Positions 4,971-44,160 of a stretch of DNA of 52,094 nt are shown here, piece after piece. Both the position numbers and the translations under genes were made by a program. Location of the stretch: positions 1 through 52,094 of the IMG/VR virus record IMGVR_UViG_3300042923_000131; one strand, given 5' to 3'. Below the pieces are notes generated by a model. That model was not told where the DNA came from. It ran no database searches and saw nothing but the letters and a program-made list of their open reading frames with translations. Origin of the DNA: a virus. Lineage: Duplodnaviria; Caudoviricetes. The stretch's first letter is position 1. Each line of letters starts with the position of its first letter.

Positions 4971-6320
4971 ATGTTTCAAGGAAGTATACCGGCTAGTGGA
5001 TTAAAGGTAATGGCAAATGTTATAAAAGATTGGAAATGTGAAAAGATTTATGTAGGTTGTTCAGGTAATTTTACAGTAGAAAGATGCATAAGCAAATTTT
5101 TTGAAGGAACTATATTAAGCAATGATGTAACAATATATAGTGCAAACTTAGGTAAGTATTTCGCAGGAGAAGAATTAGTAGATTTTGAAGTGCGAGAAGA
5201 CTATGAAGGTTACTGCCAATATTTCAGAGATTATATGAATACTAATACAGAGAAGATGGCTACAATGATATTGGCTACAGATATATTACCTTATGAAAAA
5301 AAGAATATTCCTTATTTTAAAAGGATGTTAAAAGCGTATGAAGAACAATGGCCTGAAATGCACAAGACTATGTGTATAAAATTAGAAAATATAGAGACGA
5401 AGATAGAGAACTTTTATTATGGTGATGTAATGAATATGCTAGATGAAATAGATGAAGATACAGGTTTTGTAAGCTTCCCACCATTCTTTAAAGGTGGATA
5501 TGAAAAAATGTGGAAAGACTTAGAAACAACTTTTACGTATGAACCTCCAAGTTATGTAGAGTTTGACCCAGATAAGCATATTGCTATATTTTGTGAGAAA
5601 GTTAAAAAAGCTAAAAACTTTATTATAGGGACAGAGAGAATAGTACCAGAGTTACAAGAGTTCTATTCAGGAATGGCTTTAACAGCTAAGAATAAACCTA
5701 TATACTTTTACTCAAGAACAGATAAGCGAGTATTTATAAGACCTCTAACTAAGCACTCTTTACTAAAAGTAGAAAGAATAAAGAAAAATGATAAGATAAA
5801 TAATGTAGAGATAAAGAAATTAAGTCATGAACAATTTGATGAACTTAGAGCAGTTTATTTGAGTAAGATGATTACACCAGCTAGAGAATCAGCTGCGTTT
5901 GGATTATTTACAGATAATAAACTTTTTGGAGTATTTGCATTTAGTACATCAATGACTTTAGTTAATAGCTTTGAGAATATGATATCAGGACCAACTATAT
6001 ATTTGATGACAGATTTCGCTATAAGTCCAACAAGTGAAACTCATCTGAGCAAATTAGTTCTGAATTGTATATTAAGTAAAGAAGTAAAACAGATAGCTGA
6101 GAATTTAATGAATAAAAGAGTAAGGTCTGTATGTACTAATGCATTTAGTAAGAATCCAATCTCTATGAAATATAGAAGTGTTTTCGAGCAATTAAATCGT
6201 AGAGAAATGGACGTAGATAAAGCAACTGGAAAGGTTACGAAATATAATCTTACTTATGGAGCATTGATGGGTCAATGGACTCTGCAGGAGGGGTATGAAA
6301 AATGGAAACAAAAATCATAA
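4971..6320 (+). CDS. Adenine-MTase-like (Dam/D12-type fold, degenerate motif IV) domain fused to a C-terminal GNAT/Mom-like domain; putative DNA modification protein
   Basis: YVGCSGNFT (motif I-like), SNDV, YYGD, FVSFPPFF (DPPY position); C-terminal FGLFTDNKLFGVFAFS...YLMTDF...LSKLVL. Confidence 0.55.
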   Translation: MFQGSIPASGLKVMANVIKDWKCEKIYVGCSGNFTVERCISKFFEGTILSNDVTIYSANLGKYFAGEELVDFEVREDYEGYCQYFRDYMNTNTEKMATMILATDILPYEKKNIPYFKRMLKAYEEQWPEMHKTMCIKLENIETKIENFYYGDVMNMLDEIDEDTGFVSFPPFFKGGYEKMWKDLETTFTYEPPSYVEFDPDKHIAIFCEKVKKAKNFIIGTERIVPELQEFYSGMALTAKNKPIYFYSRTDKRVFIRPLTKHSLLKVERIKKNDKINNVEIKKLSHEQFDELRAVYLSKMITPARESAAFGLFTDNKLFGVFAFSTSMTLVNSFENMISGPTIYLMTDFAISPTSETHLSKLVLNCILSKEVKQIAENLMNKRVRSVCTNAFSKNPISMKYRSVFEQLNRREMDVDKATGKVTKYNLTYGALMGQWTLQEGYEKWKQKS

Positions 6321-35522: not shown

Positions 35523-36461
35523 ATGGAGAATACCAAAGGAAATGAACTTGCAAAAGTTTTATACTATTACGGTTTTATATCTAATGCTAATACATCAGAG
35601 CAGAAGATAGTATGTCCTTTTCATAATGATATAAATCCAAGTATGAAAGTAGATTTGATAAAAAACTCATGGATTTGTTTTGGTTGTGGATTAAATGGAG
35701 ACGCTATAAAGTTTGTTCGATATGCAGAAAAAGAATTAAGCGAAATGGAGTCTCTAAAAAAATATTATAAAATATTGAAGTCAAAAAAAACAGCTCATAT
35801 TAAATTAGGAATGAGAATAAAAGAAAGAAAGAAAAATATACAACAAGATTTAATAGAGGCTAAAGATTATTATTATTGTTTAAGTAAAATAGATTGGAAG
35901 AACAATGATACTCAAGAAGTTATCGAAGCTAGAGACTATATGAAAAAAAGAGGATTTACAGAAAACGCTTTAAATTCGTGTAAAGCTAAAATAACATATA
36001 ATGAGCATTATGGTTTGATATTTCCTATGTTAGATAATGGAGAGTTTAAAGGTTGGGTTTGTAGAACAATGCTACCTAGCATAGAAAAGAAAAGAAAATA
36101 TTTATATAATACTGGTTTTAGTAGAGCTACAACTTTAGTAGGAACATATAATGATAAATCTGATTTGTATTTAGTAGAAGGTTATATGGATATGCTAAAG
36201 TTTAAACAATTTGGAATTAGAAATGTAGCAGCTCTTTTAGGATGGAAGATATCAAATGAACAAATATTAAAGCTTAAAGCTAAAGGAATTAAAAGAATAA
36301 TTTCAGCATTAGATAACGATGAATGTGGTAAAAAAGGAAGTGCAGAATTAAGCAAACATTTTGAAGTAAAAAGATTTTGCTATTTAAGAAAAGTAAAAGA
36401 CCCAGGTGATATGACTAAAGAGCTATTTGAAAAGATGAATAAAAAAACAAAAGGGGAATAA
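35523..36461 (+). CDS. DNA primase (CHC2 Zn finger + Toprim)
   Basis: CPFHNDINPS..WICFGC; LVEGYMD, ALDND, KDPGD. Confidence 0.9.
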   Translation: MENTKGNELAKVLYYYGFISNANTSEQKIVCPFHNDINPSMKVDLIKNSWICFGCGLNGDAIKFVRYAEKELSEMESLKKYYKILKSKKTAHIKLGMRIKERKKNIQQDLIEAKDYYYCLSKIDWKNNDTQEVIEARDYMKKRGFTENALNSCKAKITYNEHYGLIFPMLDNGEFKGWVCRTMLPSIEKKRKYLYNTGFSRATTLVGTYNDKSDLYLVEGYMDMLKFKQFGIRNVAALLGWKISNEQILKLKAKGIKRIISALDNDECGKKGSAELSKHFEVKRFCYLRKVKDPGDMTKELFEKMNKKTKGE

Positions 36462-36463
36462 AT

Positions 36464-37303
36464 ATGGGATTGATAAGTAAGATAAAAAATGATGTAAAAA
36501 AATCAGGTACTAACAAAGGTAAACTCGCTTATTTAAAAGATGGAGACAAAAAGAGATATAGATTTTTAACAGATATGGACGATGGGTTAGAAGTAGTTTT
36601 TCATGATAGCTTTGCAGCTGGTATTAATGTTCCATGCCAAGAAAACTTTGGACTACCTTGTGATTTTTGCGAAGACTCAGATTTAAGAACAAGAAGTTTA
36701 TATTGCTGGAGTGTATGGGATTATGACTTGAAAGAAGTTAAGCTGTTTTTATTTGCAGTTAACAATTGTTCACCAGTTCCTGCTCTTATGGCTTTATATG
36801 AAACTTATGGAACTTTGATTGATAGAGATATGGTAGTGTCAGTTAATGGTAAAGCTCAAAATAAAACTTTTAATGTAGTTCCTATGGATAAGCAAAAGTT
36901 CAGAAATGAAAAAGCAAAACCATTATCTGAGAAAGCGATATTAAAAATAATTAATAAAGCGTTTCCTACGGATGACTCAGAAGATGACGACGATGATGAT
37001 ATTGAAGAAACTAAAAAAACAAAAACTAAAGCTAAGTCAAAAGCTAAAACAAAACCTGCTAAAAAGTCTAAACCTAAAGAAGACGAATGGGACGAAGAAG
37101 AAGACGAGGATGAAGAAGAAGACGAAATCGATTATTCAGATATGACTCCGAAAGAATTATATGCTATGTGCAAAGAAAAAGATATAGATTGTCAAATTAG
37201 AAAGCCAGCTAAATACTATGCAAAACTTTTAGAAGAATTTGATAAAGCTACTGATGATTGGGAAGACGATGAGGAAGAAGACGATGACGAGTGGGAAGAT
37301 TAA
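36464..37303 (+). CDS. Putative single-stranded DNA-binding protein with acidic tail
   Basis: LKDGD..RF, H..C..CDFC, VWDY, RD; acidic C-terminus; between primase and nucleotide genes. Confidence 0.6.
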   Translation: MGLISKIKNDVKKSGTNKGKLAYLKDGDKKRYRFLTDMDDGLEVVFHDSFAAGINVPCQENFGLPCDFCEDSDLRTRSLYCWSVWDYDLKEVKLFLFAVNNCSPVPALMALYETYGTLIDRDMVVSVNGKAQNKTFNVVPMDKQKFRNEKAKPLSEKAILKIINKAFPTDDSEDDDDDDIEETKKTKTKAKSKAKTKPAKKSKPKEDEWDEEEDEDEEEDEIDYSDMTPKELYAMCKEKDIDCQIRKPAKYYAKLLEEFDKATDDWEDDEEEDDDEWED

Positions 37304-37637
37304 AAATCTAACATTCCAATCATGCTATACTCAGCAAATGGAGTATCAAGAAGAAGTTACAGAGGTAAAAGATTTACCAAAAGATAATTTAGAACATTTC
37401 AGTTATCATATACAAGCTATGGTAGAAGAATTGGGTGAAGTAATGAAAGCTGATAAACGTTGGAAAACTCACAGAAACAGTTCTTATAATTCAGCTGAAA
37501 AGTTAGAAGAAATAGCCGATGTTTTTATAACTGCTATGAATATAGCTATACATTCTGGATATACATCTGATGAAGTTCTAAAAGAAATATCTGATAAAAT
37601 AAATAAAAATTACAAAATATTAGGTGCTGAGGAATAA
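37284..37637 (+). CDS. All-alpha NTP pyrophosphohydrolase (dimeric dUTPase/dCTPase/MazG-like)
   Basis: EELGEV..KRWK..EEIADV..K..KN; likely start ATG 37284. Confidence 0.8.
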   Translation: MTSGKIKNLTFQSCYTQQMEYQEEVTEVKDLPKDNLEHFSYHIQAMVEELGEVMKADKRWKTHRNSSYNSAEKLEEIADVFITAMNIAIHSGYTSDEVLKEISDKINKNYKILGAEE

Positions 37638-37673
37638 TCCTCAGTTTCACTTATATACTAAAGGAGCGAGTAA

Positions 37674-38165
37674 ATGATAGTTATAGTAGAAGGTATAGAT
37701 AGAGTAGGAAAAACAACATTATGTAATAAGTTAAAAAGTGACTTAGGCTTTAAAATTCTTAAAGATGAAGTTTTTAAGCCAGAACATTTCACGGAAGAAA
37801 TAATTGCAGAAAAATTCCTTACAACAGTTAATATGCTAAAACTCTTAAATAAAGATATTGATATAGTTATTGATAGATTTTATTTATCAGAAGCAGTGTA
37901 TGGTTTGATGGAAAGAAAGTATGATAGCAAGTATTTGAAAAAGATAGAGTTAGAACTGCTTAAGCTTGACGCTATTATTATATTAGTAAATCCAACAGAT
38001 ATTGAAGAATCAAGTAAAAAGCATGGAAAAGATTTAACTATACATAGTATTTTATTTAATCTAAGATTTGAAAAAATAATCTTAAGAAAAATTCTATGTA
38101 AATATGATAATTTTAAATTTGTTGTAGAGCATTTAAAAGACTTGAAAGTAAGTGAAAAACTATGA
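37674..38165 (+). CDS. dNMP kinase (thymidylate kinase-like P-loop)
   Basis: IVEGIDRVGKTT, IDRFYLSEAVYG. Confidence 0.8.
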   Translation: MIVIVEGIDRVGKTTLCNKLKSDLGFKILKDEVFKPEHFTEEIIAEKFLTTVNMLKLLNKDIDIVIDRFYLSEAVYGLMERKYDSKYLKKIELELLKLDAIIILVNPTDIEESSKKHGKDLTIHSILFNLRFEKIILRKILCKYDNFKFVVEHLKDLKVSEKL

Positions 38166-39061
38166 ATATGAAAGTGATATTAGGAGCAGGTTTATCAGGA
38201 CTAACTTTGGCTACTTGTTTTAAAAATAACTCAGCCATGATTCCAGTTTTATTCAGTAAAGATTATGGTGGACAGATGAAATCACCTTTTCCTTTAGGAC
38301 CTAGAATTTTACATAATAGTTCAAATAAAGTAATTGAGTTTTTAGATTATTTAGGAATAAAAGATAAGCCTAGAGATTTTAAAATAGGATATTACAAATC
38401 GTGTCAAATAAAAGGTGAAGCAACTGAAAGAGAAAGAATAGAGTATATTTTAAAAACAAGAGGAAACTCTAATATAATTGAAAGTTCAATGTCAGCAAAA
38501 GCTAGTACAATTAATGGTTGGGATATGAATGAAATAAATCTATTAAATAAAATGCTAGTAAAGATAAAGATAGTTAAAAGGCCAATTCATAGAGAACTGA
38601 TTGATGGATTAATAAGAATGGGTGGCAATGATATTTATTCAACTATAGATTATTTTGACTTAGCTAAAATGCTATCAGGTAGACCTTATAGAAGAGCTAG
38701 TATAGCTAAAGAAAAAGATGAAAGTTTTGTAGAGCAGTGTTTTTATTGTATAAAAGTAGATGATGATTCTTTTAAAGGGTATGATTATATTTATAATTTA
38801 GACCCAGAAGATAGCGTAAAAAGAATGACTAAGTTTATTTATGAAGGAGAAACCTATTGTATTTATGAAAGTATGAGACCAGAAAGTTTATTGAATGAAA
38901 TGTCTCATACATTCAGACCGATAAAAAAGCAGATACAAATAGTGCAAAATTTGAATGTAAATAATATTAAAGGAGTAACTTTAGTAGGAAGATATGCTCA
39001 AGTTGACCACTCAGTAAGAATAGATACAATAATAAATAAGTACTGGGAGAGTAAAGTATGA
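38162..39061 (+). CDS. FAD-dependent oxidoreductase, UDP-galactopyranose-mutase-like
   Basis: ILGAGLSG, YGG, GPRILH, STI, VGRYAQ. Confidence 0.65.
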   Translation: MNMKVILGAGLSGLTLATCFKNNSAMIPVLFSKDYGGQMKSPFPLGPRILHNSSNKVIEFLDYLGIKDKPRDFKIGYYKSCQIKGEATERERIEYILKTRGNSNIIESSMSAKASTINGWDMNEINLLNKMLVKIKIVKRPIHRELIDGLIRMGGNDIYSTIDYFDLAKMLSGRPYRRASIAKEKDESFVEQCFYCIKVDDDSFKGYDYIYNLDPEDSVKRMTKFIYEGETYCIYESMRPESLLNEMSHTFRPIKKQIQIVQNLNVNNIKGVTLVGRYAQVDHSVRIDTIINKYWESKV

Positions 39062-39615
39062 ATAAAAGTTGCGTAATAGATATTGATGGTGTACTGAATT
39101 ATTATCCTGAAACATGGTTGGATTTTGTAGCCGATAAGACAGGATTTTTTTATAACAATTTGCATGATATGAAAAATGAAATAAGTTATAATGAATACAC
39201 TAAATTAAAAGAAGAGTATCGAAATTGTGGAATTAAAGAGAATTTAAAAGTAAGAGAAGGAGCTGTAGAATTACTGGATTATTTAAAATCAATAGGATAT
39301 TACATAATTATTACAACAGCTAGACCAGTAAATTTACATCAAAATTTAATGTCTCAAACATCTAATTGGCTAAAAAAGAATAAGCTAGATTATGATAATT
39401 TATTCTTCTCTTTTAAGAAACATCTAACTATAGTAGAATATTTTAAAAGTATAGATTTTGCTATTGAAGATAATAGATATTATATAAACGATATAGCTGA
39501 AATGGGGTACAAAGGTTATTTAGTAGATAATATTTATAATCAAGGAGACGTGGAAGAAAAAGTAGTAAGAGTGAAAAATCTAAAAGAAATTGAGGATGAT
39601 TTAAAATGCCGATAA
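39058..39615 (+). CDS. HAD-family 5'(3')-deoxyribonucleotidase-like phosphatase
   Basis: DIDGVL, ITTAR, WL, K, IED. Confidence 0.85.
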   Translation: MNKSCVIDIDGVLNYYPETWLDFVADKTGFFYNNLHDMKNEISYNEYTKLKEEYRNCGIKENLKVREGAVELLDYLKSIGYYIIITTARPVNLHQNLMSQTSNWLKKNKLDYDNLFFSFKKHLTIVEYFKSIDFAIEDNRYYINDIAEMGYKGYLVDNIYNQGDVEEKVVRVKNLKEIEDDLKCR

Positions 39616-40640
39616 ATAATAACCTTAAGAAAAAAGATTTTCCAATGCGGTTGAAATTTGATAAAAGTCCATATACTTATTATCAAAATAATTTAGAATC
39701 AATAGATGTAAAGTTGATAATGGCTCCTAAATATGAAGATGTAAGAACTGGATGTATTGCTTTTGCTAACGCTACATGGGCTGACAGACCTTGGAATAAA
39801 AATGAAATTAATAAATATATGAGTGAAAAAACACAAGATAAATTTATGTATCATATATTTAGTAAAAAGATATTGCCGACAACTATGGAAACTATTCAGT
39901 TGACTTTTAAAATATCAGGAATAAGCTTACAAGAAGTAACTCATATTCTCAGATATAGAAATGCAACGTTTTCAGCAGAATGTTCTGGTGATAAATTTTT
40001 ACATGATAAAGGGTTTTTAATCCCAACGTCAATAGAGAACTCCAAAGAATTTGATGAAAGATATGTAAAAATATGCGAAGATGCTAAAGCGTTATATTGT
40101 GATATGGTAGAAACAAAAGAAATAAATATACACGATGCTAGATATATAATGCCAAGATGCTTAGAAACTTTTTATTTTATGAGTATGGATTTAAAAACAG
40201 CTTTACAATTTATATATGATAGAGTAGATAAACAGATTCAGCCACAAACTGATAATGTTTTAGCTTATCAAATGATTTCAGCCTTATGTATACAATATCC
40301 TATTTTAGTTAAAATTATAGGTAAAGATTTTATACACAGAAAGGCTGATTTTTATATAAATACAGCTAGACAATTTAGAAGTACAAACTGGTATTGTCCA
40401 GATAAAGACTCTGATGTATTTGAATATAACGAAGAAGATTTTATTTACGGTGATAAAAGACGTGATGAAATGCTAGGTTTGTGTGATGTATTATATCCAT
40501 CAAATGTATTCAAATTTATATTAGAAGATTTAGAAAAATTCTTAGTTAATTTAGAAAAGCATATTGATTCAAAATATGGTAAAGATTTTTTCAAAGAAGA
40601 TTTAACAAAAGAAGATATAGGATGGTGCTATAATATATGA
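39606..40640 (+). CDS. ThyX-like flavin-dependent protein with non-canonical active site
   Basis: TFKISGIS..THILRYR, DARYIMP, FIYDR..QIQ; RHR-X7-S motif altered to RYR-X7-C. Confidence 0.75.
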   Translation: MPINNNLKKKDFPMRLKFDKSPYTYYQNNLESIDVKLIMAPKYEDVRTGCIAFANATWADRPWNKNEINKYMSEKTQDKFMYHIFSKKILPTTMETIQLTFKISGISLQEVTHILRYRNATFSAECSGDKFLHDKGFLIPTSIENSKEFDERYVKICEDAKALYCDMVETKEINIHDARYIMPRCLETFYFMSMDLKTALQFIYDRVDKQIQPQTDNVLAYQMISALCIQYPILVKIIGKDFIHRKADFYINTARQFRSTNWYCPDKDSDVFEYNEEDFIYGDKRRDEMLGLCDVLYPSNVFKFILEDLEKFLVNLEKHIDSKYGKDFFKEDLTKEDIGWCYNI

Positions 40641-41407
40641 ATGTGAATAATTCAAATAGTGAGTTTCAAAACTTTAGTGAATGTGATTTAACAAAGCACT
40701 GGTCTTATTCTAATTACAATAGAAATTTAATGATGGCTAATATTATTAAAGATTTAGCTGATAAAAGAAGATATAATTTACCAAATATGATATTAGAAAT
40801 AGGAGCAGGAGATAGTCCTTTGGAATATATGAGCGTAGCAAATTTTAATACATATTGTACTGAATGGATTAAAATAGATGGTGATGCTAAGAGATATAAG
40901 GATGATGCTAGCATAAAGTTATTTGATATTGAAAGTAAAGACTTCTATAATTTTATACAGACTCTTAGATGTAAACCTAACGTTGTGGTAATGTCAGAAG
41001 TAATTGAGCATATGAGTTCAAAAGAATCAGCTAAAAAAGTTATAGAAAATTTGTATCATGTTATGGAAGAAGAAAGTTATCTTTTATTAACAACTCCTAC
41101 TCCACCTTTAGATGGTATATATGAAGAAAGAGTTTGGCCAGATGACCATGAATTTGAGTTTACATATGACGAGATATATGATATACTAAATATATACTTT
41201 AAAATAGAAAAAAAGATTGGATGGAGCTTAGAAGAGCGAGAGTATAATGATTTACTTAAGAATGATGAGTTTATTGGAAAAACCTATTTGAATTTAAAAG
41301 GTTTAATGCCAGAAGGATATATTAGAAGTTTGATATCTTTATTAGCGTATCCAGAAATGAATAGGCAAGTATTATTAGTATGTAGGAAAAGAAGGGTTAT
41401 TTTATGA
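40637..41407 (+). CDS. Class I SAM-dependent methyltransferase (small-molecule type)
   Basis: ILEIGAG, DGD, SEVIEHM, LLLTTP, HEFEF. Confidence 0.85.
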   Translation: MNVNNSNSEFQNFSECDLTKHWSYSNYNRNLMMANIIKDLADKRRYNLPNMILEIGAGDSPLEYMSVANFNTYCTEWIKIDGDAKRYKDDASIKLFDIESKDFYNFIQTLRCKPNVVVMSEVIEHMSSKESAKKVIENLYHVMEEESYLLLTTPTPPLDGIYEERVWPDDHEFEFTYDEIYDILNIYFKIEKKIGWSLEEREYNDLLKNDEFIGKTYLNLKGLMPEGYIRSLISLLAYPEMNRQVLLVCRKRRVIL

Positions 41408-44160
41408 TTGATTTACATAGACATGATGAGTATTCGACATTTGATGGATTTGGAAAAGCTAAGGAAATAGCTAAGATAGCAAAAGAATTAGGACATACTT
41501 CTTTAGGGATTGCTAATCATGGTAATACTAATGGATTGATTCAACATTATTATGATTGTAATGAACAAGGTATCAAACCAGTTCTAGGAGTAGAATGTTA
41601 CTTTCAGCCAGTATTTAATAAAGAAAAGCCAAGATATCATTTATGTTTATTTGCTAAAGATTTAGTAGGTTATGGAAACATAAATAGGATATTATATGCA
41701 GCTGAACAACATAAATATTATACACCTTTAGTACTGTTTGAAGATTTAGAAAAACACAGTGAAGGTGTAATATGTACATCGGCTTGTATAGCAGGAATAG
41801 TATCACAAGCTATTGAAAAAGGTAACATAGATTTAGCTGAAAAAGCTATGAAGAAATTTAAAAAGATATTTGGAGAAGATTATTATATAGAGATACAACC
41901 TTATAAAATTGATGAAATGAGAACACAGGAAAAAGTAAATGTAGAACTAATAAAACTAGCTGTGAAATTAAAGATAAAATGTATACTTACATCGGATAGC
42001 CATTATGGCTCGAGAGAAGATTTTGAAACGTATAAAGTAATGCATGAAATAGCTAAACATAATTATGATATAGAGGCAACTTATGGTGAAAGATTCATGC
42101 CAACAGAAAAAGAATTAAAAGTAAGATTTTATAAAATGCATAAGAAAGATTTTGGAGAAGAGCAAGCGAAGAAAATGTCTTTATCTATGATTAGAAATTT
42201 AGAACAAATAGAAGATAAAGTAGAAGATAATATTTTAGAAGGATTAGAGCTAAAGTTGCCTCAAATGTTTGAAGGTCATGATAGCTATGAGGTTCTTGAA
42301 AAAGAAGTTAGAAAAGGGTTAAAAGAAAAAGGCTTTGGGAAAAACAAAGTATATATAGATAGATGTAAAGCAGAGCTTGAAGTAATTAAGTTTCATGGTT
42401 ACTCTGATTATTTTCTTATAGTTCAAGATTATGTTGATTGGGCTATGAAAAGAGGAATTAACATTGGACCGGGTAGAGGCTCAATTTGTAATTGTGAAGT
42501 AGCTTATATTATAGGTATTACAACAGTTGATAGTATAAAGTTCAATTTAGAGTTTAGAAGATTTATGAGGATGGATAAGAAAAGCATGCCTGATATTGAT
42601 TTAGATTTTGAAACGAGCAGAAGACAAGAAGTAATAGATTATATGGTAGATAAGTATAAAGGACATGCAGCTCAAATATGTAATTACGGTTTGTATAAGA
42701 TAGATAATTTAATAAACGATTTGGCAAAAGTAAGTGGTTTAGTTGTCTCAGGTAAAGATGTGAGTGATGAAGAAAAGAAGTCAAGGAAGATAGAAATAGC
42801 GGCCATTAAAAAACATATAAGAAAATATGATGATGAAAATGGGATAGATTTTAAATCTTTAAAAGCAACGAAAGAGTTTAAATATTATGATAAAGAGTAT
42901 TACAATATAATGACTCATTTTTCTAAGCTTTATCAAAAAGTAAGATTCATAGGAACTCATGCTGCAGGAGTAGCTATAACTGGTGGTAATCTACTTGATT
43001 ATGTTACATTAAGGATAGATTCTAAAACAGGAAAGACGTTCTCAAATTATGATTTAGGTGATTTAGACAGAATCAAAATAATAAAGTTTGATTTCTTAGG
43101 ACTTAAAACTATGGAAGAGCTAGGAGAATTAAGAGTACTTGCGGGGAAAGATAATTATTTTGATATCTCAGAACATATCGAAGACGAAAAGATTAATGAG
43201 AGATTCAATAAAGGAGATACAACTGGTATATTTCAATTTGGTGCAGCTACTGCTAAGAACATTTTAATAGATATAGATTCAGATTGCTTTGAAGACATAA
43301 CAGCAGCATCGGCTATGAACAGACCAGGGCCATTAAGTTTAAAGATGCCTTTAACTTACTCAGAGAACAAATTTAATAAAGAGGAATCAATGGGAAGTAA
43401 GTATTGGGATTATACTAAAGAGACTTACGGAACGATAGTATATCAAGAACAACTTATGGCGATATGTACGAATATAGGTCAGATGACTTGGGGTGAAGCA
43501 GATAAAGTCATGAAGATTCAAAAGAGAAGTGGTCAGAATGCTGCAGCTCTTACAGGAGCTAATGCTAAAGTTTTAGAAGTAAAAGACGAATTGATAGAGA
43601 AGTTTGTTAAAGGTGCTATGAATAATGGCTATAAAGAAAAAGAAGCTTACGACTTTTTTCAAAATCTGTTAGTATATACTTTTAATAAAGGCCATGCAGT
43701 AGGCTACACTTTGATAAGTTTTGAAGCTATGTATTATAAAGTTTATTATCCAACAGAGTTTTGGTATACTAAAATTAAGTACGCTAAAGATGATGAAGAG
43801 ATATCAAGATTTTGTGTAAACGCAGTTGGAGACGAAGCCGTTGTTTTTTTACCACATTGTAATTATTCTCAAGCTAGAACGAGTATTAGGAGAACAGAGG
43901 GAGAAAACGTTATTCAACAAGGATTTACTAATTTAAAAGGAGTAGGAGAAAAAGCAGCAGAATATATAGTAGCTGAAAGAGATAAGAATGGTATATTCAA
44001 ATCGTATGATGATTTTTACGATAGATGTAAAAGCAGAACGGTTACGTCAAGAGTTATAGATATAATGAAAGACCAAGGTACATTAGAATTTAATAAGAAA
44101 ATATACATAAGTAGAGTAACTAAGTTTAATAGTGCTTTATATACAAGAGTTTCTAAATAA
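41404..44160 (+). CDS. dnaE: DNA polymerase III alpha subunit (family C)
   Basis: PHP HRHDEYSTFDG, GPGRGS, PDIDLDF, HAAGV, KFDFLGL, YQEQ, FNKGHA. Confidence 0.95.
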   Translation: MIDLHRHDEYSTFDGFGKAKEIAKIAKELGHTSLGIANHGNTNGLIQHYYDCNEQGIKPVLGVECYFQPVFNKEKPRYHLCLFAKDLVGYGNINRILYAAEQHKYYTPLVLFEDLEKHSEGVICTSACIAGIVSQAIEKGNIDLAEKAMKKFKKIFGEDYYIEIQPYKIDEMRTQEKVNVELIKLAVKLKIKCILTSDSHYGSREDFETYKVMHEIAKHNYDIEATYGERFMPTEKELKVRFYKMHKKDFGEEQAKKMSLSMIRNLEQIEDKVEDNILEGLELKLPQMFEGHDSYEVLEKEVRKGLKEKGFGKNKVYIDRCKAELEVIKFHGYSDYFLIVQDYVDWAMKRGINIGPGRGSICNCEVAYIIGITTVDSIKFNLEFRRFMRMDKKSMPDIDLDFETSRRQEVIDYMVDKYKGHAAQICNYGLYKIDNLINDLAKVSGLVVSGKDVSDEEKKSRKIEIAAIKKHIRKYDDENGIDFKSLKATKEFKYYDKEYYNIMTHFSKLYQKVRFIGTHAAGVAITGGNLLDYVTLRIDSKTGKTFSNYDLGDLDRIKIIKFDFLGLKTMEELGELRVLAGKDNYFDISEHIEDEKINERFNKGDTTGIFQFGAATAKNILIDIDSDCFEDITAASAMNRPGPLSLKMPLTYSENKFNKEESMGSKYWDYTKETYGTIVYQEQLMAICTNIGQMTWGEADKVMKIQKRSGQNAAALTGANAKVLEVKDELIEKFVKGAMNNGYKEKEAYDFFQNLLVYTFNKGHAVGYTLISFEAMYYKVYYPTEFWYTKIKYAKDDEEISRFCVNAVGDEAVVFLPHCNYSQARTSIRRTEGENVIQQGFTNLKGVGEKAAEYIVAERDKNGIFKSYDDFYDRCKSRTVTSRVIDIMKDQGTLEFNKKIYISRVTKFNSALYTRVSK

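What the first reader, a model, noticed from the sequence alone, without database searches (positions are those of the whole stretch)
37284..44160. Candidate undescribed pathway for a modified pyrimidine, coupled to a phage DnaE
Seen: six consecutive genes (dUTPase/MazG-type pyrophosphatase, dNMP kinase, UGM-like FAD enzyme, HAD nucleotidase, non-canonical ThyX-like protein, small-molecule SAM methyltransferase). From the kinase onward they overlap stop-to-start and run straight into dnaE. Known: phages that replace a base before replication (T4 hmC, SPO1 hmU, dZ phages) pair a base-modifying synthase with a dNMP kinase, an enzyme that removes the canonical dNTP/dNMP, and their own polymerase. 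Inference: this cluster has the same logic but a different chemistry (ThyX fold, a second flavoenzyme, a methyltransferase, a family C polymerase). It may make a C5-substituted dU/dC, possibly O-methylated or sugar-bearing, that I cannot match to any characterised pathway.
Basis: partly seen in the sequence, partly recalled or inferred. Interest (0 to 1): 0.88.

Follow-up and report, generated by a model that had tools for sequence, protein, structure and literature searches.

The report
Phage nucleotide cassette around variant ThyX
An uncultured phage carries, just ahead of its DNA polymerase gene, a tightly packed set of nucleotide enzymes built round an unusual relative of the thymine-making enzyme ThyX; the core of the set recurs in many uncultured phages and may supply an unusual DNA building block, although ordinary thymidylate supply is not excluded.

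Summary
The six genes are there as described and run stop-to-start into dnaE. The window is a complete 52-kb virus record. The ThyX-like protein has the ThyX fold, but its substrate loop is rewritten: Cys sits at the Ser88 place and SxRY is lost.

In 40 related loci the variant ThyX always sits with a deoxynucleotidase and a partner. In 37 the pair is a YfbR-like HD enzyme plus a nucleoside deoxyribosyltransferase. In 3, this window included, it is a HAD phosphatase plus a UGM-fold flavoprotein. A small kinase is present in 31 of 40, a MazG-like gene in 27 and DnaE in 30. Phages with canonical ThyX lack these partners (0 of 80 loci; YfbR-like 0 of 50 and Tmk 2 of 50 whole records). The methyltransferase is not conserved (2 of 40).

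Whether the product is dTMP or a non-canonical pyrimidine cannot be settled from sequence. I put about 0.45 on a non-canonical product and 0.40 on a divergent dTMP/salvage module. No glycosyltransferase was found, and GATC is strongly avoided. The scan had already noted this family on other DNA. Geobacillus phage GR1 is the only cultured carrier.

The parts
37239..37637 (+). MazG / dimeric-dUTPase-like all-alpha NTP pyrophosphohydrolase.
   Evidence: Pfam dUTPase_2 E 1.2e-4 (22.8 bits against cut-off 22.9), MazG-like and MazG weak. phrog_173 and phrog_2245 NTP pyrophosphohydrolase E 1e-6 and 1e-5. Homologues in 27 of 40 variant-ThyX loci.
37674..38165 (+). Small (163 aa) Tmk-like P-loop nucleotide or nucleoside kinase ('kinA').
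   Evidence: PF02223 E 2.4e-9. TIGR00041 42.6 bits, below its cut-off of 83.25. phrog_761 E 8e-18. The same family is in 16 of 40 loci, and in 11 of them it is fused to an NDT domain. A second small kinase family is in 15 more.
38162..39061 (+). UGM-fold FAD protein (299 aa) of a small phage-only family. Motifs: GxGxxG, LGPRILH, GRYAQxxH.
   Evidence: AF2 pLDDT 81. Foldseek PDB top 23 hits are all UDP-galactopyranose mutases, TMq 0.57-0.64. Atlas. 13 homologues, alignment A2. No Pfam GLF hit. No homologue in 50,697 cultured phage records.
39058..39615 (+). HAD-superfamily phosphatase of the 5'(3')-deoxyribonucleotidase (NT5C) kind, always paired with the UGM-fold protein.
   Evidence: PF06941 NT5C 25.4 bits (cut-off 24.8). 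DxDGV motif invariant. Profile against PDB: 1xpj E 0.004, 3bwv putative 5'(3')-deoxyribonucleotidase E 0.016. Actinophage homologues are annotated 5' nucleotidase. It follows the FAD gene in 8 of 8 loci where the downstream side is visible.
39606..40640 (+). Variant ('Cys-type') ThyX: ThyX core plus about 30 aa of N-terminal and about 100 aa of C-terminal family-specific extension. The substrate loop reads R-Y-R-N-A-T-F-S-A-E-C-S-G-D-K-F.
   Evidence: Thy1 E 4.6e-19. TIGR02170 31.6 bits, below its cut-off of 87.9. hhalign against canonical ThyX: probability 99%, E 1.6e-18. AF2 pLDDT 89.6. All top PDB fold hits are ThyX, TMt 0.62-0.74. Motif statistics in 160 family members. 727 homologues. 295 50%-identity clusters at E<=1e-10.
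40637..41407 (+). Class I SAM-dependent methyltransferase (Methyltransf_23/11 type). Probably not part of the conserved pathway.
   Evidence: PF13489 E 5e-5. Atlas neighbours are all class I MTases, many viral. A homologue occurs in only 1 other of the 40 loci (L003), at a different place, and in none of L157-L163.
41404..44160 (+). Family C replicative DNA polymerase (DnaE-type, PHP domain).
   Evidence: PF07733 E 7.5e-61, PHP E 1e-33, finger and HHH_6 domains. phrog_405 E 2e-214. It lies downstream of the variant ThyX in 30 of 40 loci.
35523..37303 (+). Upstream neighbours that travel with the cassette in the nearer clade: DnaG-type primase (35523-36461) and a conserved 279-aa protein with an acidic tail (36464-37303).
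   Evidence: Pfam Zn_ribbon_DnaG and Toprim. Conserved order in 16-17 loci.

Best explanation
The cluster is a pre-replicative deoxypyrimidine-pool cassette built round a variant ThyX.

Shown:
- The protein has the ThyX fold. It keeps the Arg residues that in solved ThyX and PolB structures hold the nucleotide and the pyrimidine O2: the RxR motif, DARY..PR, and R..D..IQP.
- Its substrate-recognition loop is rewritten. Cys sits at the Ser88 place, a Gly-Asp insertion follows, Lys/Arg stands for Arg90, and Trp/Phe or other residues stand for the lid Tyr91.
- It is always accompanied by a deoxynucleotidase and usually by a small kinase, a MazG-like pyrophosphatase and the phage's own DnaE.

Inferred mechanism:
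1. The MazG/dUTPase-like enzyme turns a pyrimidine dNTP into the dNMP substrate and removes the canonical triphosphate.
2. The variant ThyX uses reduced flavin and methylene-tetrahydrofolate to put a one-carbon unit on C5 of dUMP (less likely dCMP). The product differs from that of canonical ThyX. 5-hydroxymethyl is the simplest candidate, because the Tyr lid that shields the methylene intermediate from water is gone.
3. The dedicated kinase carries the product to the diphosphate, and DnaE incorporates it.
4. The phosphatase, with its partner, drains the canonical monophosphate or nucleoside. The pair is HAD plus the UGM-fold flavoprotein here, and HD plus NDT elsewhere.

The methyltransferase is most likely an unrelated passenger.
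For: (1) Loop. The rewritten loop is family-wide. In 157 of 160 sequences a strict pattern matched, with Cys, Asp/Glu and Lys/Arg in every one; the other 3 carry ...FS[SC]ECTGDKF. Relatives with FSQQC beside canonical YSQQS place the Cys at the Ser88 position. Ser88, Arg90 and Tyr91 are described as conserved and critical, and the Tyr as a lid over C5/N5 (passages of PMC11940539, and of PMC6514825; PolB contacts in PMC5003785 section 9).

(2) Partners. In 40 loci there is HD + NDT in 37 and HAD + UGM-like in the other 3. A kinase is present in 31 of 40; 8 of the 9 without one are loci that end too early. MazG-like is in 27 of 40 and DnaE in 30 of 40. The linkage survives at least four different gene orders.

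(3) Controls.
- 80 phage loci with canonical ThyX: 0 with these kinase, HD or NDT families.
- Whole records of 50 of these 80: YfbR-like 0 of 50, Tmk 2 of 50.

(4) Thymidylate synthases alongside. A canonical ThyA (PCVHH, RSND...N, C-terminal DVAI; 250 and 211 bits) coexists with the variant ThyX in 2 of 30 records searched. A divergent ThyA-like gene coexists in 2 more.

(5) Distribution. The family is essentially phage-only: 3 MAG contigs among 185,579 species genomes.

(6) Precedent. Verified ThyA-family clusters for non-canonical pyrimidines hold the same accessory kinds: a Tmk-like kinase, a 1xpj-like HAD, and UGM in phage RL38J1 (passages of PMC13326640). Our HAD profile also hits 1xpj first.
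Against: - No chemistry is shown, and no read-level data were available. The two runs that hold the stretch are kept as contigs only.
- Under one plausible loop alignment (Cys = Ser88, a two-residue insertion, Lys/Arg = Arg90, Trp/Phe = Tyr91) the catalytic set is nearly conserved. PolB Y99F keeps 80% of its dUMP activity. An ordinary dTMP synthase is therefore possible.
- The Cys is not kept in all sister clades, where Thr, Ala, Gly, Ser or Val occur. It is Gly in the variant ThyX beside the UGM-like/HAD pair in L157 and L159, the two loci where that region is visible. A universal Cys nucleophile is therefore unlikely.
- GATC (5 observed against 158.6 expected), GAATTC (0 against 11.5) and TCTAGA (0 against 9.7) are avoided in the window. 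GATC is also avoided in several relatives. The DNA therefore seems exposed to restriction at sites containing both T and C.
- All carriers are AT-rich: locus GC 0.30-0.42. The GR1 locus is 0.32, in a host I recall as about 0.52. A need for extra dTTP and dATP would explain NDT + nucleotidase + kinase as base-swapping salvage. The kinase-NDT fusions fit consecutive salvage steps.
- A canonical ThyA in some carriers argues against complete replacement of thymine in those phages.
Confidence: 0.45

Rival explanations
1. An ordinary, if divergent, thymidylate supply and deoxynucleoside salvage module for an AT-rich phage. The variant ThyX makes dTMP from dUMP, and the dUTPase-like enzyme feeds it. 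The nucleotidase frees deoxynucleosides from surplus dNMPs. NDT (here perhaps the UGM-fold enzyme) moves the deoxyribose to another base. The kinase re-phosphorylates the product. No modified base enters DNA.
For: - ThyX fold, with conserved RxR, DARY..PR and R..D..IQP.
- A loop alignment exists that keeps the Arg90 and Tyr91 equivalents. Y-to-F is tolerated in PolB.
- All carrier loci are AT-rich, 0.30-0.42 GC.
- Kinase-NDT fusions occur in 11 loci. dCMP deaminase is nearby in 10 loci.
- Restriction-site avoidance suggests unprotected DNA.
- E. coli YfbR takes part in a dC-to-dU route to thymidylate (recalled, not checked here).
Against: - Phages with canonical ThyX do not carry these partners: 0 of 80 loci, YfbR-like 0 of 50 and Tmk 2 of 50 records.
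- The strictly conserved new loop residues have no reason under unchanged chemistry.
- Two carriers also encode a canonical ThyA.
- A dNMP phosphatase is counter-productive for simple dNTP supply unless it is selective.
- A UGM-fold enzyme has no known role in nucleoside salvage.
Confidence: 0.4
2. The UGM-fold protein and the HAD phosphatase make an activated furanose sugar, and the DNA base made by the variant ThyX is then glycosylated or O-methylated.
For: - The best PDB fold matches are UGMs.
- Verified glycosyl-5hoC clusters contain UGM (phage RL38J1) and a 1xpj-like HAD, the latter proposed as a sugar-phosphate phosphatase (passages of PMC13326640). Our HAD profile hits 1xpj.
- A methyltransferase gene is adjacent.
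Against: - No glycosyltransferase, nucleotidyltransferase or sugar kinase was found in the 40 window ORFs scanned. The remaining, mostly structural-region ORFs were not scanned.
- The pair occupies the slot held by NDT + HD nucleotidase in 37 other loci, which points to nucleotide substrates rather than sugar substrates.
- There is no Pfam GLF match, and the protein is about 70-90 aa shorter than UGMs.
- The methyltransferase is not conserved.
- GATC, GAATTC and TCTAGA are avoided.
Confidence: 0.05
3. The cassette does not feed DNA synthesis. It makes or destroys a free base, a nucleoside or a signalling nucleotide (for example as counter-defence or host takeover), or the variant ThyX has lost catalysis and serves as a nucleotide-binding subunit.
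For: - In nucleoside-antibiotic pathways a TS-like enzyme works with an NDT-family hydrolase to give a free modified base (MilA/MilB, recalled; MilA is named in PMC13326640).
- A solved ThyX is titled 'structurally atypical ... not required for thymidylate biosynthesis' (3ge9, in the listing).
Against: - The position directly before the replicative polymerase in 30 of 40 loci, within replication modules.
- The presence of a kinase and an NTP pyrophosphatase.
- Strong conservation of the nucleotide-binding Arg residues.
Confidence: 0.1

Closest known systems
Canonical flavin-dependent thymidylate synthase ThyX/FDTS (Pfam Thy1 PF02511; T. maritima TM0449, M. tuberculosis ThyX)
   Same: - Same fold: hhalign probability 99%; all top Foldseek PDB hits, TMt 0.62-0.74.
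- Conserved first and third Arg of RHR, and conserved equivalents of Arg147 and Arg174.
   Different: - About 15-19% identity.
- The ThyX motif is not met: His79 is Tyr in 113 of 157 sequences, Ser88 is Cys, SxRY is lost or re-spaced, and the Arg at -8 is Leu.
- There are N- and C-terminal extensions of about 130 aa.
- It scores below the TIGR02170 equivalog cut-off.
- It has a different and constant set of neighbours.
ThyA-family non-canonical pyrimidine pathways of phages: T4 dCMP hydroxymethylase + dCTPase + dNMP kinase; SPO1-type dUMP hydroxymethylase + dTMPase + dTTPase/dUTPase + kinase (both recalled); RB69/DLP3/RL38J1 5-hydroxy-dCMP synthase clusters (PMC13326640, passages read)
   Same: - The same logic of parts: a TS-like C5 enzyme, a dedicated kinase, an NTP pyrophosphatase, a nucleotidase, dCMP deaminase in some relatives, and the phage's own polymerase.
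- The verified 5hoC clusters also hold a Tmk-like kinase, a 1xpj-like HAD and (in RL38J1) UGM.
   Different: - The C5 enzyme here has the unrelated ThyX fold. No ThyX-fold enzyme of this kind appeared in my searches.
- No glycosyltransferase was found.
- The polymerase is family C.
- No modified base has been shown.
PolB, the ThyX-family UMP/dUMP C5-methylase of polyoxin biosynthesis (PMC5003785, abstract and section 9 read)
   Same: A ThyX homologue recruited to a substrate other than the housekeeping one through changes in loops around the substrate-recognition peptide.
   Different: PolB keeps the Ser-Ala-Arg-Tyr recognition peptide and still methylates. It is bacterial and lies in an antibiotic cluster.
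Z-genome cluster PurZ + DatZ (small HD dATPase) + MazZ (MazG-like) next to the phage polymerase (recalled, not checked here)
   Same: A small HD phosphohydrolase and a MazG-like enzyme sit beside a base-making synthase and the polymerase. One removes the canonical nucleotide and the other supplies the substrate.
   Different: That is purine chemistry rather than pyrimidine chemistry. There is no NDT, no ThyX, and the polymerase family differs.
UDP-galactopyranose mutase (Glf)
   Same: The best structural matches of the 299-aa flavoprotein. The GxGxxG, 'GP.I.H' and C-terminal 'GR.A' motifs resemble UGM motifs; the resemblance of the last two is recalled.
   Different: There is no Pfam GLF match, and no UGM hit by sequence profile against PDB. 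It is shorter by about 70-90 aa. It is paired with a deoxynucleotidase-like HAD and stands where other phages have NDT.

Membership tests
ThyX / FDTS (flavin-dependent thymidylate synthase) | ThyX fold and Pfam Thy1 domain above the gathering score | tested here: met
   Thy1 69.4 bits (cut-off 24.8). hhalign probability 99%. Foldseek top hits are all ThyX.
ThyX / FDTS (flavin-dependent thymidylate synthase) | ThyX motif RHRxxSxxxxSxR(Y), with Ser88, Arg90 and Tyr91 (T. maritima numbering) | tested here: not met
   The window has RYRNATFSAECSGDKF. In the family, Cys is at the Ser88 place in all 157 pattern-matched sequences, and SxRY is absent or re-spaced. hhalign leaves SQRY unaligned.
ThyX / FDTS (flavin-dependent thymidylate synthase) | Score above the NCBIfam equivalog cut-off (TIGR02170) | tested here: not met
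   31.6 bits against a cut-off of 87.9.
ThyX / FDTS (flavin-dependent thymidylate synthase) | Nucleotide-binding Arg residues equivalent to Arg78, Arg80, Arg147 and Arg174 | tested here: met
   R116, R118, R179 and R206 are invariant in alignment A1, and are aligned to those residues by HMMER.
ThyX / FDTS (flavin-dependent thymidylate synthase) | Reductive methylation of dUMP to dTMP with FAD, NADPH and CH2-THF | not testable with these tools
   Needs thyA complementation and an in vitro assay.
Phage base-replacement ('make new, destroy old') nucleotide cluster | A synthase homologue with altered active site making a non-canonical dNMP | tested here: inconclusive
   The active-site loop is altered and conserved. 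The product is unknown, and one loop alignment keeps the key residues.
Phage base-replacement ('make new, destroy old') nucleotide cluster | A dedicated kinase plus enzymes that can remove the canonical dNTP or dNMP, linked to the synthase | tested here: met
   Kinase in 31 of 40 loci, deoxynucleotidase in 40 of 40, MazG-like in 27 of 40. These are absent beside canonical ThyX. Substrate specificities are not known.
Phage base-replacement ('make new, destroy old') nucleotide cluster | A modified base present in virion DNA | not testable with these tools
   Only assembled contigs hold the sequence. LC-MS is needed.
Phage base-replacement ('make new, destroy old') nucleotide cluster | Relaxed avoidance of restriction sites, expected for a generally protective modification (a soft criterion) | tested here: not met
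   GATC 5 against 158.6 expected, GAATTC 0 against 11.5, TCTAGA 0 against 9.7.
UDP-galactopyranose mutase (GLF, PF03275) | UGM fold | tested here: met
   The top 23 Foldseek PDB hits are UGMs, TMq 0.57-0.64. The Atlas structure rows include viral GLF clusters.
UDP-galactopyranose mutase (GLF, PF03275) | Pfam GLF domain, or a sequence-profile match to UGM | tested here: not met
   No GLF hit at E<=0.01. The profile of A2 against PDB gives no UGM.
UDP-galactopyranose mutase (GLF, PF03275) | UDP- and sugar-binding Arg/Tyr/Trp residues | tested here: inconclusive
   No residue-level alignment to UGM could be obtained. The family invariants are listed.
NT5C-type HAD 5'(3')-deoxyribonucleotidase | HAD motif I (DxDxT/V) and an NT5C domain above cut-off | tested here: met
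   D8-I-D10-G-V is invariant. PF06941 gives 25.4 bits against a cut-off of 24.8, which is marginal. PDB 3bwv E 0.016.
dTMP kinase (Tmk) | P-loop and the DR[YFH] motif; score above family cut-offs | tested here: inconclusive
   GIDRVGKT and DRF are present. PF02223 37.6 bits is above its cut-off of 27. TIGR00041 42.6 bits is below 83.25. At 163 aa it is about 40 aa shorter than Tmk (typical length recalled).

The most novel reading that the evidence does not exclude
The variant ThyX is the first ThyX-fold (flavin-dependent) synthase of a non-canonical pyrimidine deoxynucleotide. It would be the counterpart of the ThyA-family hydroxymethyl- and hydroxy-pyrimidine synthases, and its product would be built into DNA by a family C polymerase. 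In addition, the UGM-fold flavoprotein with its HAD partner would do the job that nucleoside deoxyribosyltransferase and HD nucleotidase do in sister phages. That would make it a flavin-N5-based enzyme acting at the anomeric carbon of a deoxynucleoside or deoxynucleotide, an activity not known for this fold.
Probability: 0.3. Interest if true: 0.85.

Novelty: new variant of a known kind. Interest (0 to 1): 0.68.

Why it matters
All phage enzymes that make non-canonical pyrimidine mononucleotides in the literature I read or recall are ThyA homologues (introduction passage of PMC13326640). A ThyX-fold equivalent would open a second, flavin-based branch of DNA base chemistry.

The family is large: 727 homologues and 295 50%-identity clusters at E<=1e-10. 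It is almost wholly uncultured, with one cultured phage among 50,697 records.

Even under the ordinary reading the result is of interest. The strictly linked set of ThyX-variant + deoxynucleotidase + NDT (or UGM-like) + kinase would be an undescribed salvage route by which AT-rich phages re-balance the host's deoxynucleotide pool.

The non-orthologous swap of NDT + HD for a UGM-fold flavoprotein + HAD gives a concrete functional lead for an orphan phage flavoprotein family.

Tried and rejected
Searches that gave nothing or little
- Single-sequence searches against PDB found no ThyX for the ThyX-like gene. For the flavoprotein and the methyltransferase they gave only chance-level hits.
- The search for related loci with the single ThyX-like protein found no relative. 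The alignment A1 was needed.
- The pattern from the flavoprotein alignment was narrow. It found 1 viral locus and 6 metagenome loci, and missed L002 and L003.
- Sequencing runs: the two holders are soil-metagenome runs kept as contigs only, one of them the possible source. Read laying could say nothing on base modification, so I did not run it.
- No paper on Geobacillus phage GR1 is in the library.
- Literature searches for a ThyX-type non-canonical synthase or for this cassette gave nothing relevant in the listings, except PMC8989533, PMC5003785 and PMC13326640, of which I read passages or sections. One search served only to find residue roles.
The supplement of PMC13326640 may list IMG/VR thymidylate-synthase homologues that bear on prior knowledge of this family.

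Ideas rejected or weakened
- Catalytic N-terminal Pro: MP starts 110 of 120 sequences, but Ser or Lys variants exist.
- Cys as a universal Michael nucleophile: sister clades lack it.
- dCMP as substrate, by reading Asp129 as the Arg90 equivalent: this depends on one of three possible loop alignments. It is kept only as a minor variant.
- 'Kinase in 40 of 40 loci' was an artefact of single-linkage clustering through kinase-NDT fusions. It was corrected to 31 of 40 by domain-level search.
- In one search the 'kin' model was likewise mixed with NDT. Its control result (0 of 80) was repeated with clean models.

Limits on the counts
- The ThyA search covered 30 of the 39 related loci. L007, L010, L018, L019, L023, L024, L027, L030 and L032 were left out, mostly as short or near-duplicate records.
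- The Pfam controls on whole records covered the first 50 of the 80 control loci.

Full report
**What is there**

The window is a complete, linear IMG/VR virus record of 52,094 bp. It has about 31% G+C and all long ORFs are on the + strand. The genome has terminase, portal, tail and lysis genes and a replication module.

In the replication module the finding's six genes follow a DnaG-type primase and a conserved acidic 279-aa protein. They run into a DnaE-type polymerase and a RecA/UvsX-like recombinase. From the kinase onward each gene overlaps the next by 4-10 bases.

| Gene | Call | Evidence |
|---|---|---|
| 37239-37637 | MazG/dUTPase_2-like pyrophosphatase (marginal scores) | |
| 37674-38165 | 163-aa Tmk-like kinase | |
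| 38162-39061 | 299-aa flavoprotein | |
| 39058-39615 | HAD phosphatase of the NT5C kind | |
| 39606-40640 | 344-aa ThyX-like protein | |
| 40637-41407 | generic class I SAM methyltransferase | |

Sequence alone does not show it, but the fold does: model pLDDT 81, and the top 23 PDB hits are all UDP-galactopyranose mutases with TMq 0.57-0.64.

**The ThyX-like protein**

It belongs to a large family. There are 727 homologues by word-seeded search. By exhaustive profile search there are 1477 / 295 / 72 50%-identity clusters at E <= 1e-3 / 1e-10 / 1e-30.

Profile-profile comparison with canonical Clostridia ThyX gives probability 99%, E 1.6e-18. The AlphaFold model (pLDDT 89.6) finds only ThyX structures at the top of the PDB list, with TMt 0.62-0.74. 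The phage has no second ThyX and no ThyA.

The residues equivalent to Arg78, Arg80, Arg147 and Arg174 are invariant. The substrate-recognition loop is rewritten: R-[YH]-R-x-A-x-F-S-A-[DEQ]-C-[ST]-[GA]-[DE]-[KR]-[WF...]. This pattern holds in 157 of 160 family sequences. The other three carry the same C-T-G-D-K core.

Relatives with 'FSQQC', set beside canonical 'YSQQS', place the Cys at the Ser88 position. What follows can be read in three ways:
- ungapped, so that Arg90 becomes Gly and Tyr91 becomes Asp;
- shifted by one, so that Arg90 becomes Asp;
- with a Gly-Asp insertion, so that Lys/Arg stands for Arg90 and Trp/Phe for Tyr91.

HMMER chose the first. hhalign left SxRY unaligned. I could not obtain a residue-level structural superposition.

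The literature I read describes Ser88 and Tyr91 as critical and Arg90 as conserved (introduction passage of PMC11940539). It describes the Ser and Arg as dUMP ligands, with the Tyr as a lid over C5/N5 (section 3.1 passage of PMC6514825). In PolB the same peptide binds the phosphate and O4, while the Arg174 equivalent binds O2 (section 9 of PMC5003785). PolB Y99F keeps 80% of its dUMP activity (same section).

The Cys is not universal in sister clades. It is Gly in the variant ThyX found beside other UGM-like/HAD pairs. I therefore do not rest the case on a Cys nucleophile.

**Neighbourhoods**

I compared 39 related loci and the window: 38 from IMG/VR and Geobacillus phage GR1. The variant ThyX there is 38-63% identical to the window's.

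- A YfbR-like HD 5'-deoxynucleotidase (PF12917, E 8e-22) lies just upstream in 37 of 40 loci.
- A nucleoside 2-deoxyribosyltransferase domain (PF05014) occurs in the same 37. It is free-standing or fused to the C-terminus of the kinase.
- The three loci without them (window, L002, L003) have the UGM-fold flavoprotein and the HAD phosphatase in the same slot.
- A small kinase of the window's type is in 16 loci, and a second small P-loop kinase in 15. Of the 9 loci without one, 8 end before the place where their nearest relatives carry it.
- MazG-like genes are in 27 loci and DnaE in 30.
- At least four gene orders occur.

Seven further loci hold flavoprotein homologues. HAD follows the flavoprotein in 5 of 5 where the downstream side is visible. 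A variant ThyX is adjacent in L157, L158, L159, L160 (a C-terminal piece) and L161, with the gene order changed in some.

The methyltransferase occurs in only one other locus, L003, and lies elsewhere there.

**Controls**

I took 80 IMG/VR loci with canonical ThyX.
- None has these kinase, HD or NDT families within 8 kb.
- In the whole records of the first 50, YfbR-like is found in 0 of 50 and Tmk in 2 of 50.

The family is almost absent from cellular genomes: 3 MAG contigs among 185,579 species. Among 50,697 cultured phage records it is found only in GR1. The flavoprotein has no homologue in those records at all.

**Other evidence**

- Of 30 carrier records searched, 2 also encode a ThyA with all canonical marks. 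These are G066, 98% complete, and G068. The marks are PCVHH, RSND...N, Leu at the 143 place and a C-terminal DVAI.
- Two more records encode a divergent ThyA-like protein.
- Eight loci have a mini-ThyA-like protein of about 190 aa between the variant ThyX and DnaE. In the two read (L075, L076) it carries the catalytic Cys, and Asp at the place of Asn177.
- Ten loci have a dCMP deaminase. The GR1 clade has a nitroreductase directly upstream of the variant ThyX.

Against a generally protective modification, the window strongly avoids three restriction-type palindromes:

| Site | Observed | Expected |
|---|---|---|
| GATC | 5 | 158.6 |
| GAATTC | 0 | 11.5 |
| TCTAGA | 0 | 9.7 |

GATC is also depleted in several relatives, but not all. 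All carrier loci are AT-rich, 0.30-0.42 G+C, against a median of 0.41 and a range of 0.25-0.60 in the controls. No glycosyltransferase was found in the 40 window ORFs scanned.

**Reading**

The parts list matches the established logic of phage base replacement: a pyrophosphatase, a nucleotidase, a TS-like enzyme, a dedicated kinase and the phage's own polymerase. T4 and SPO1-type phages are recalled examples. The 5-hydroxy-dCMP clusters of PMC13326640 also hold a Tmk-like kinase, a 1xpj-like HAD and, in RL38J1, UGM (passages). Our HAD profile hits 1xpj first.

The linkage is specific to the variant ThyX and is not shared by canonical phage ThyX. This, the conserved new loop and the coexistence with ThyA make a changed product the slightly better explanation (0.45). 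The simplest candidate is a C5 one-carbon product of dUMP other than methyl.

A divergent dTMP synthase inside a base-swapping salvage module for AT-rich phages explains several facts equally well or better (0.40): the NDT, nucleotidase and kinase genes, the kinase-NDT fusions, the AT-richness and the restriction-site avoidance.

The sugar or O-methyl extension has little support (0.05). Other roles take the remaining 0.10.

The scan had already noted this family on other DNA and reached the same open verdict.
- the controls;
- the NDT+HD versus UGM-like+HAD alternation;
- the corrected kinase count;
- the ThyA coexistence;
- the breadth of the variant superfamily;
- the restriction-site evidence.

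Noticed in passing
window 4971-6320 (+): A 449-aa fusion of a phage Dam-like domain (PF22555, E 1e-71) and a phage GNAT-like domain (PF22559, E 4e-44). This is a candidate DNA adenine-modifying enzyme, separate from the finding.
   Followed up: no
whole window: GATC is almost absent (5 observed against 158.6 expected, z -17). GAATTC (0 against 11.5) and TCTAGA (0 against 9.7) are absent; CTAG and CATG are depleted. GATC depletion is shared by some related loci (L003-L008, L029, L033, L038) but not by others.
   Followed up: partly
whole window: Strong and constant purine excess on the coding strand: A 21292 against T 14703, G 10356 against C 5743. GC skew is +0.15 to +0.39 in every 2-kb bin, with no switch.
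   Followed up: no
window 36464-37303 (+): A conserved 279-aa protein with a long Asp/Glu/Lys-rich tail lies between the primase and the MazG-like gene. It has no Pfam family and is present in 17 related loci at the same place.
   Followed up: no
L008:9002-9598, L016:8963-9526, L012:3539-4192 and five other loci: A 'mini ThyA-like' protein of about 190-217 aa lies between the variant ThyX and DnaE. It gives weak PF00303 hits. In the two copies read it has the catalytic Cys, the RSxD motif, and Asp at the place of E. coli Asn177, which is the dCMP-type signature.
   Followed up: partly
L071 (record G068) and L072 (record G066): Canonical ThyA genes (250 and 211 bits) are on the same phage records as a variant ThyX of the GR1 clade.
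   Followed up: partly
L004:6216-7163 and ten other loci: Fusion proteins of the small Tmk-like kinase (N-terminal) with a nucleoside 2-deoxyribosyltransferase domain (C-terminal), about 305-326 aa.
   Followed up: partly
L040:8286-8885 (Geobacillus phage GR1) and L031, L032, L034, L036: A nitroreductase-family flavoprotein lies directly upstream of the variant ThyX in the GR1 clade. It is a possible flavin reductase partner.
   Followed up: no
L162:2599-3294: A 231-aa ThyX homologue (116 bits to the canonical profile) lies near a UGM-like/HAD/kinase trio. The RHR motif appears to be replaced by T-H-A, so it looks degenerate or re-purposed.
   Followed up: no
L005:6296-7012: A UDG-superfamily gene (PF03167, E 1e-17) is inserted between the kinase and NDT in one related cassette.
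   Followed up: no
L017-L028 group, e.g. L018:8960-9988: An NAD-dependent epimerase/dehydratase gene lies directly downstream of the variant ThyX in 6 loci that also carry a class II RNR and a 1210-aa DnaE.
   Followed up: no
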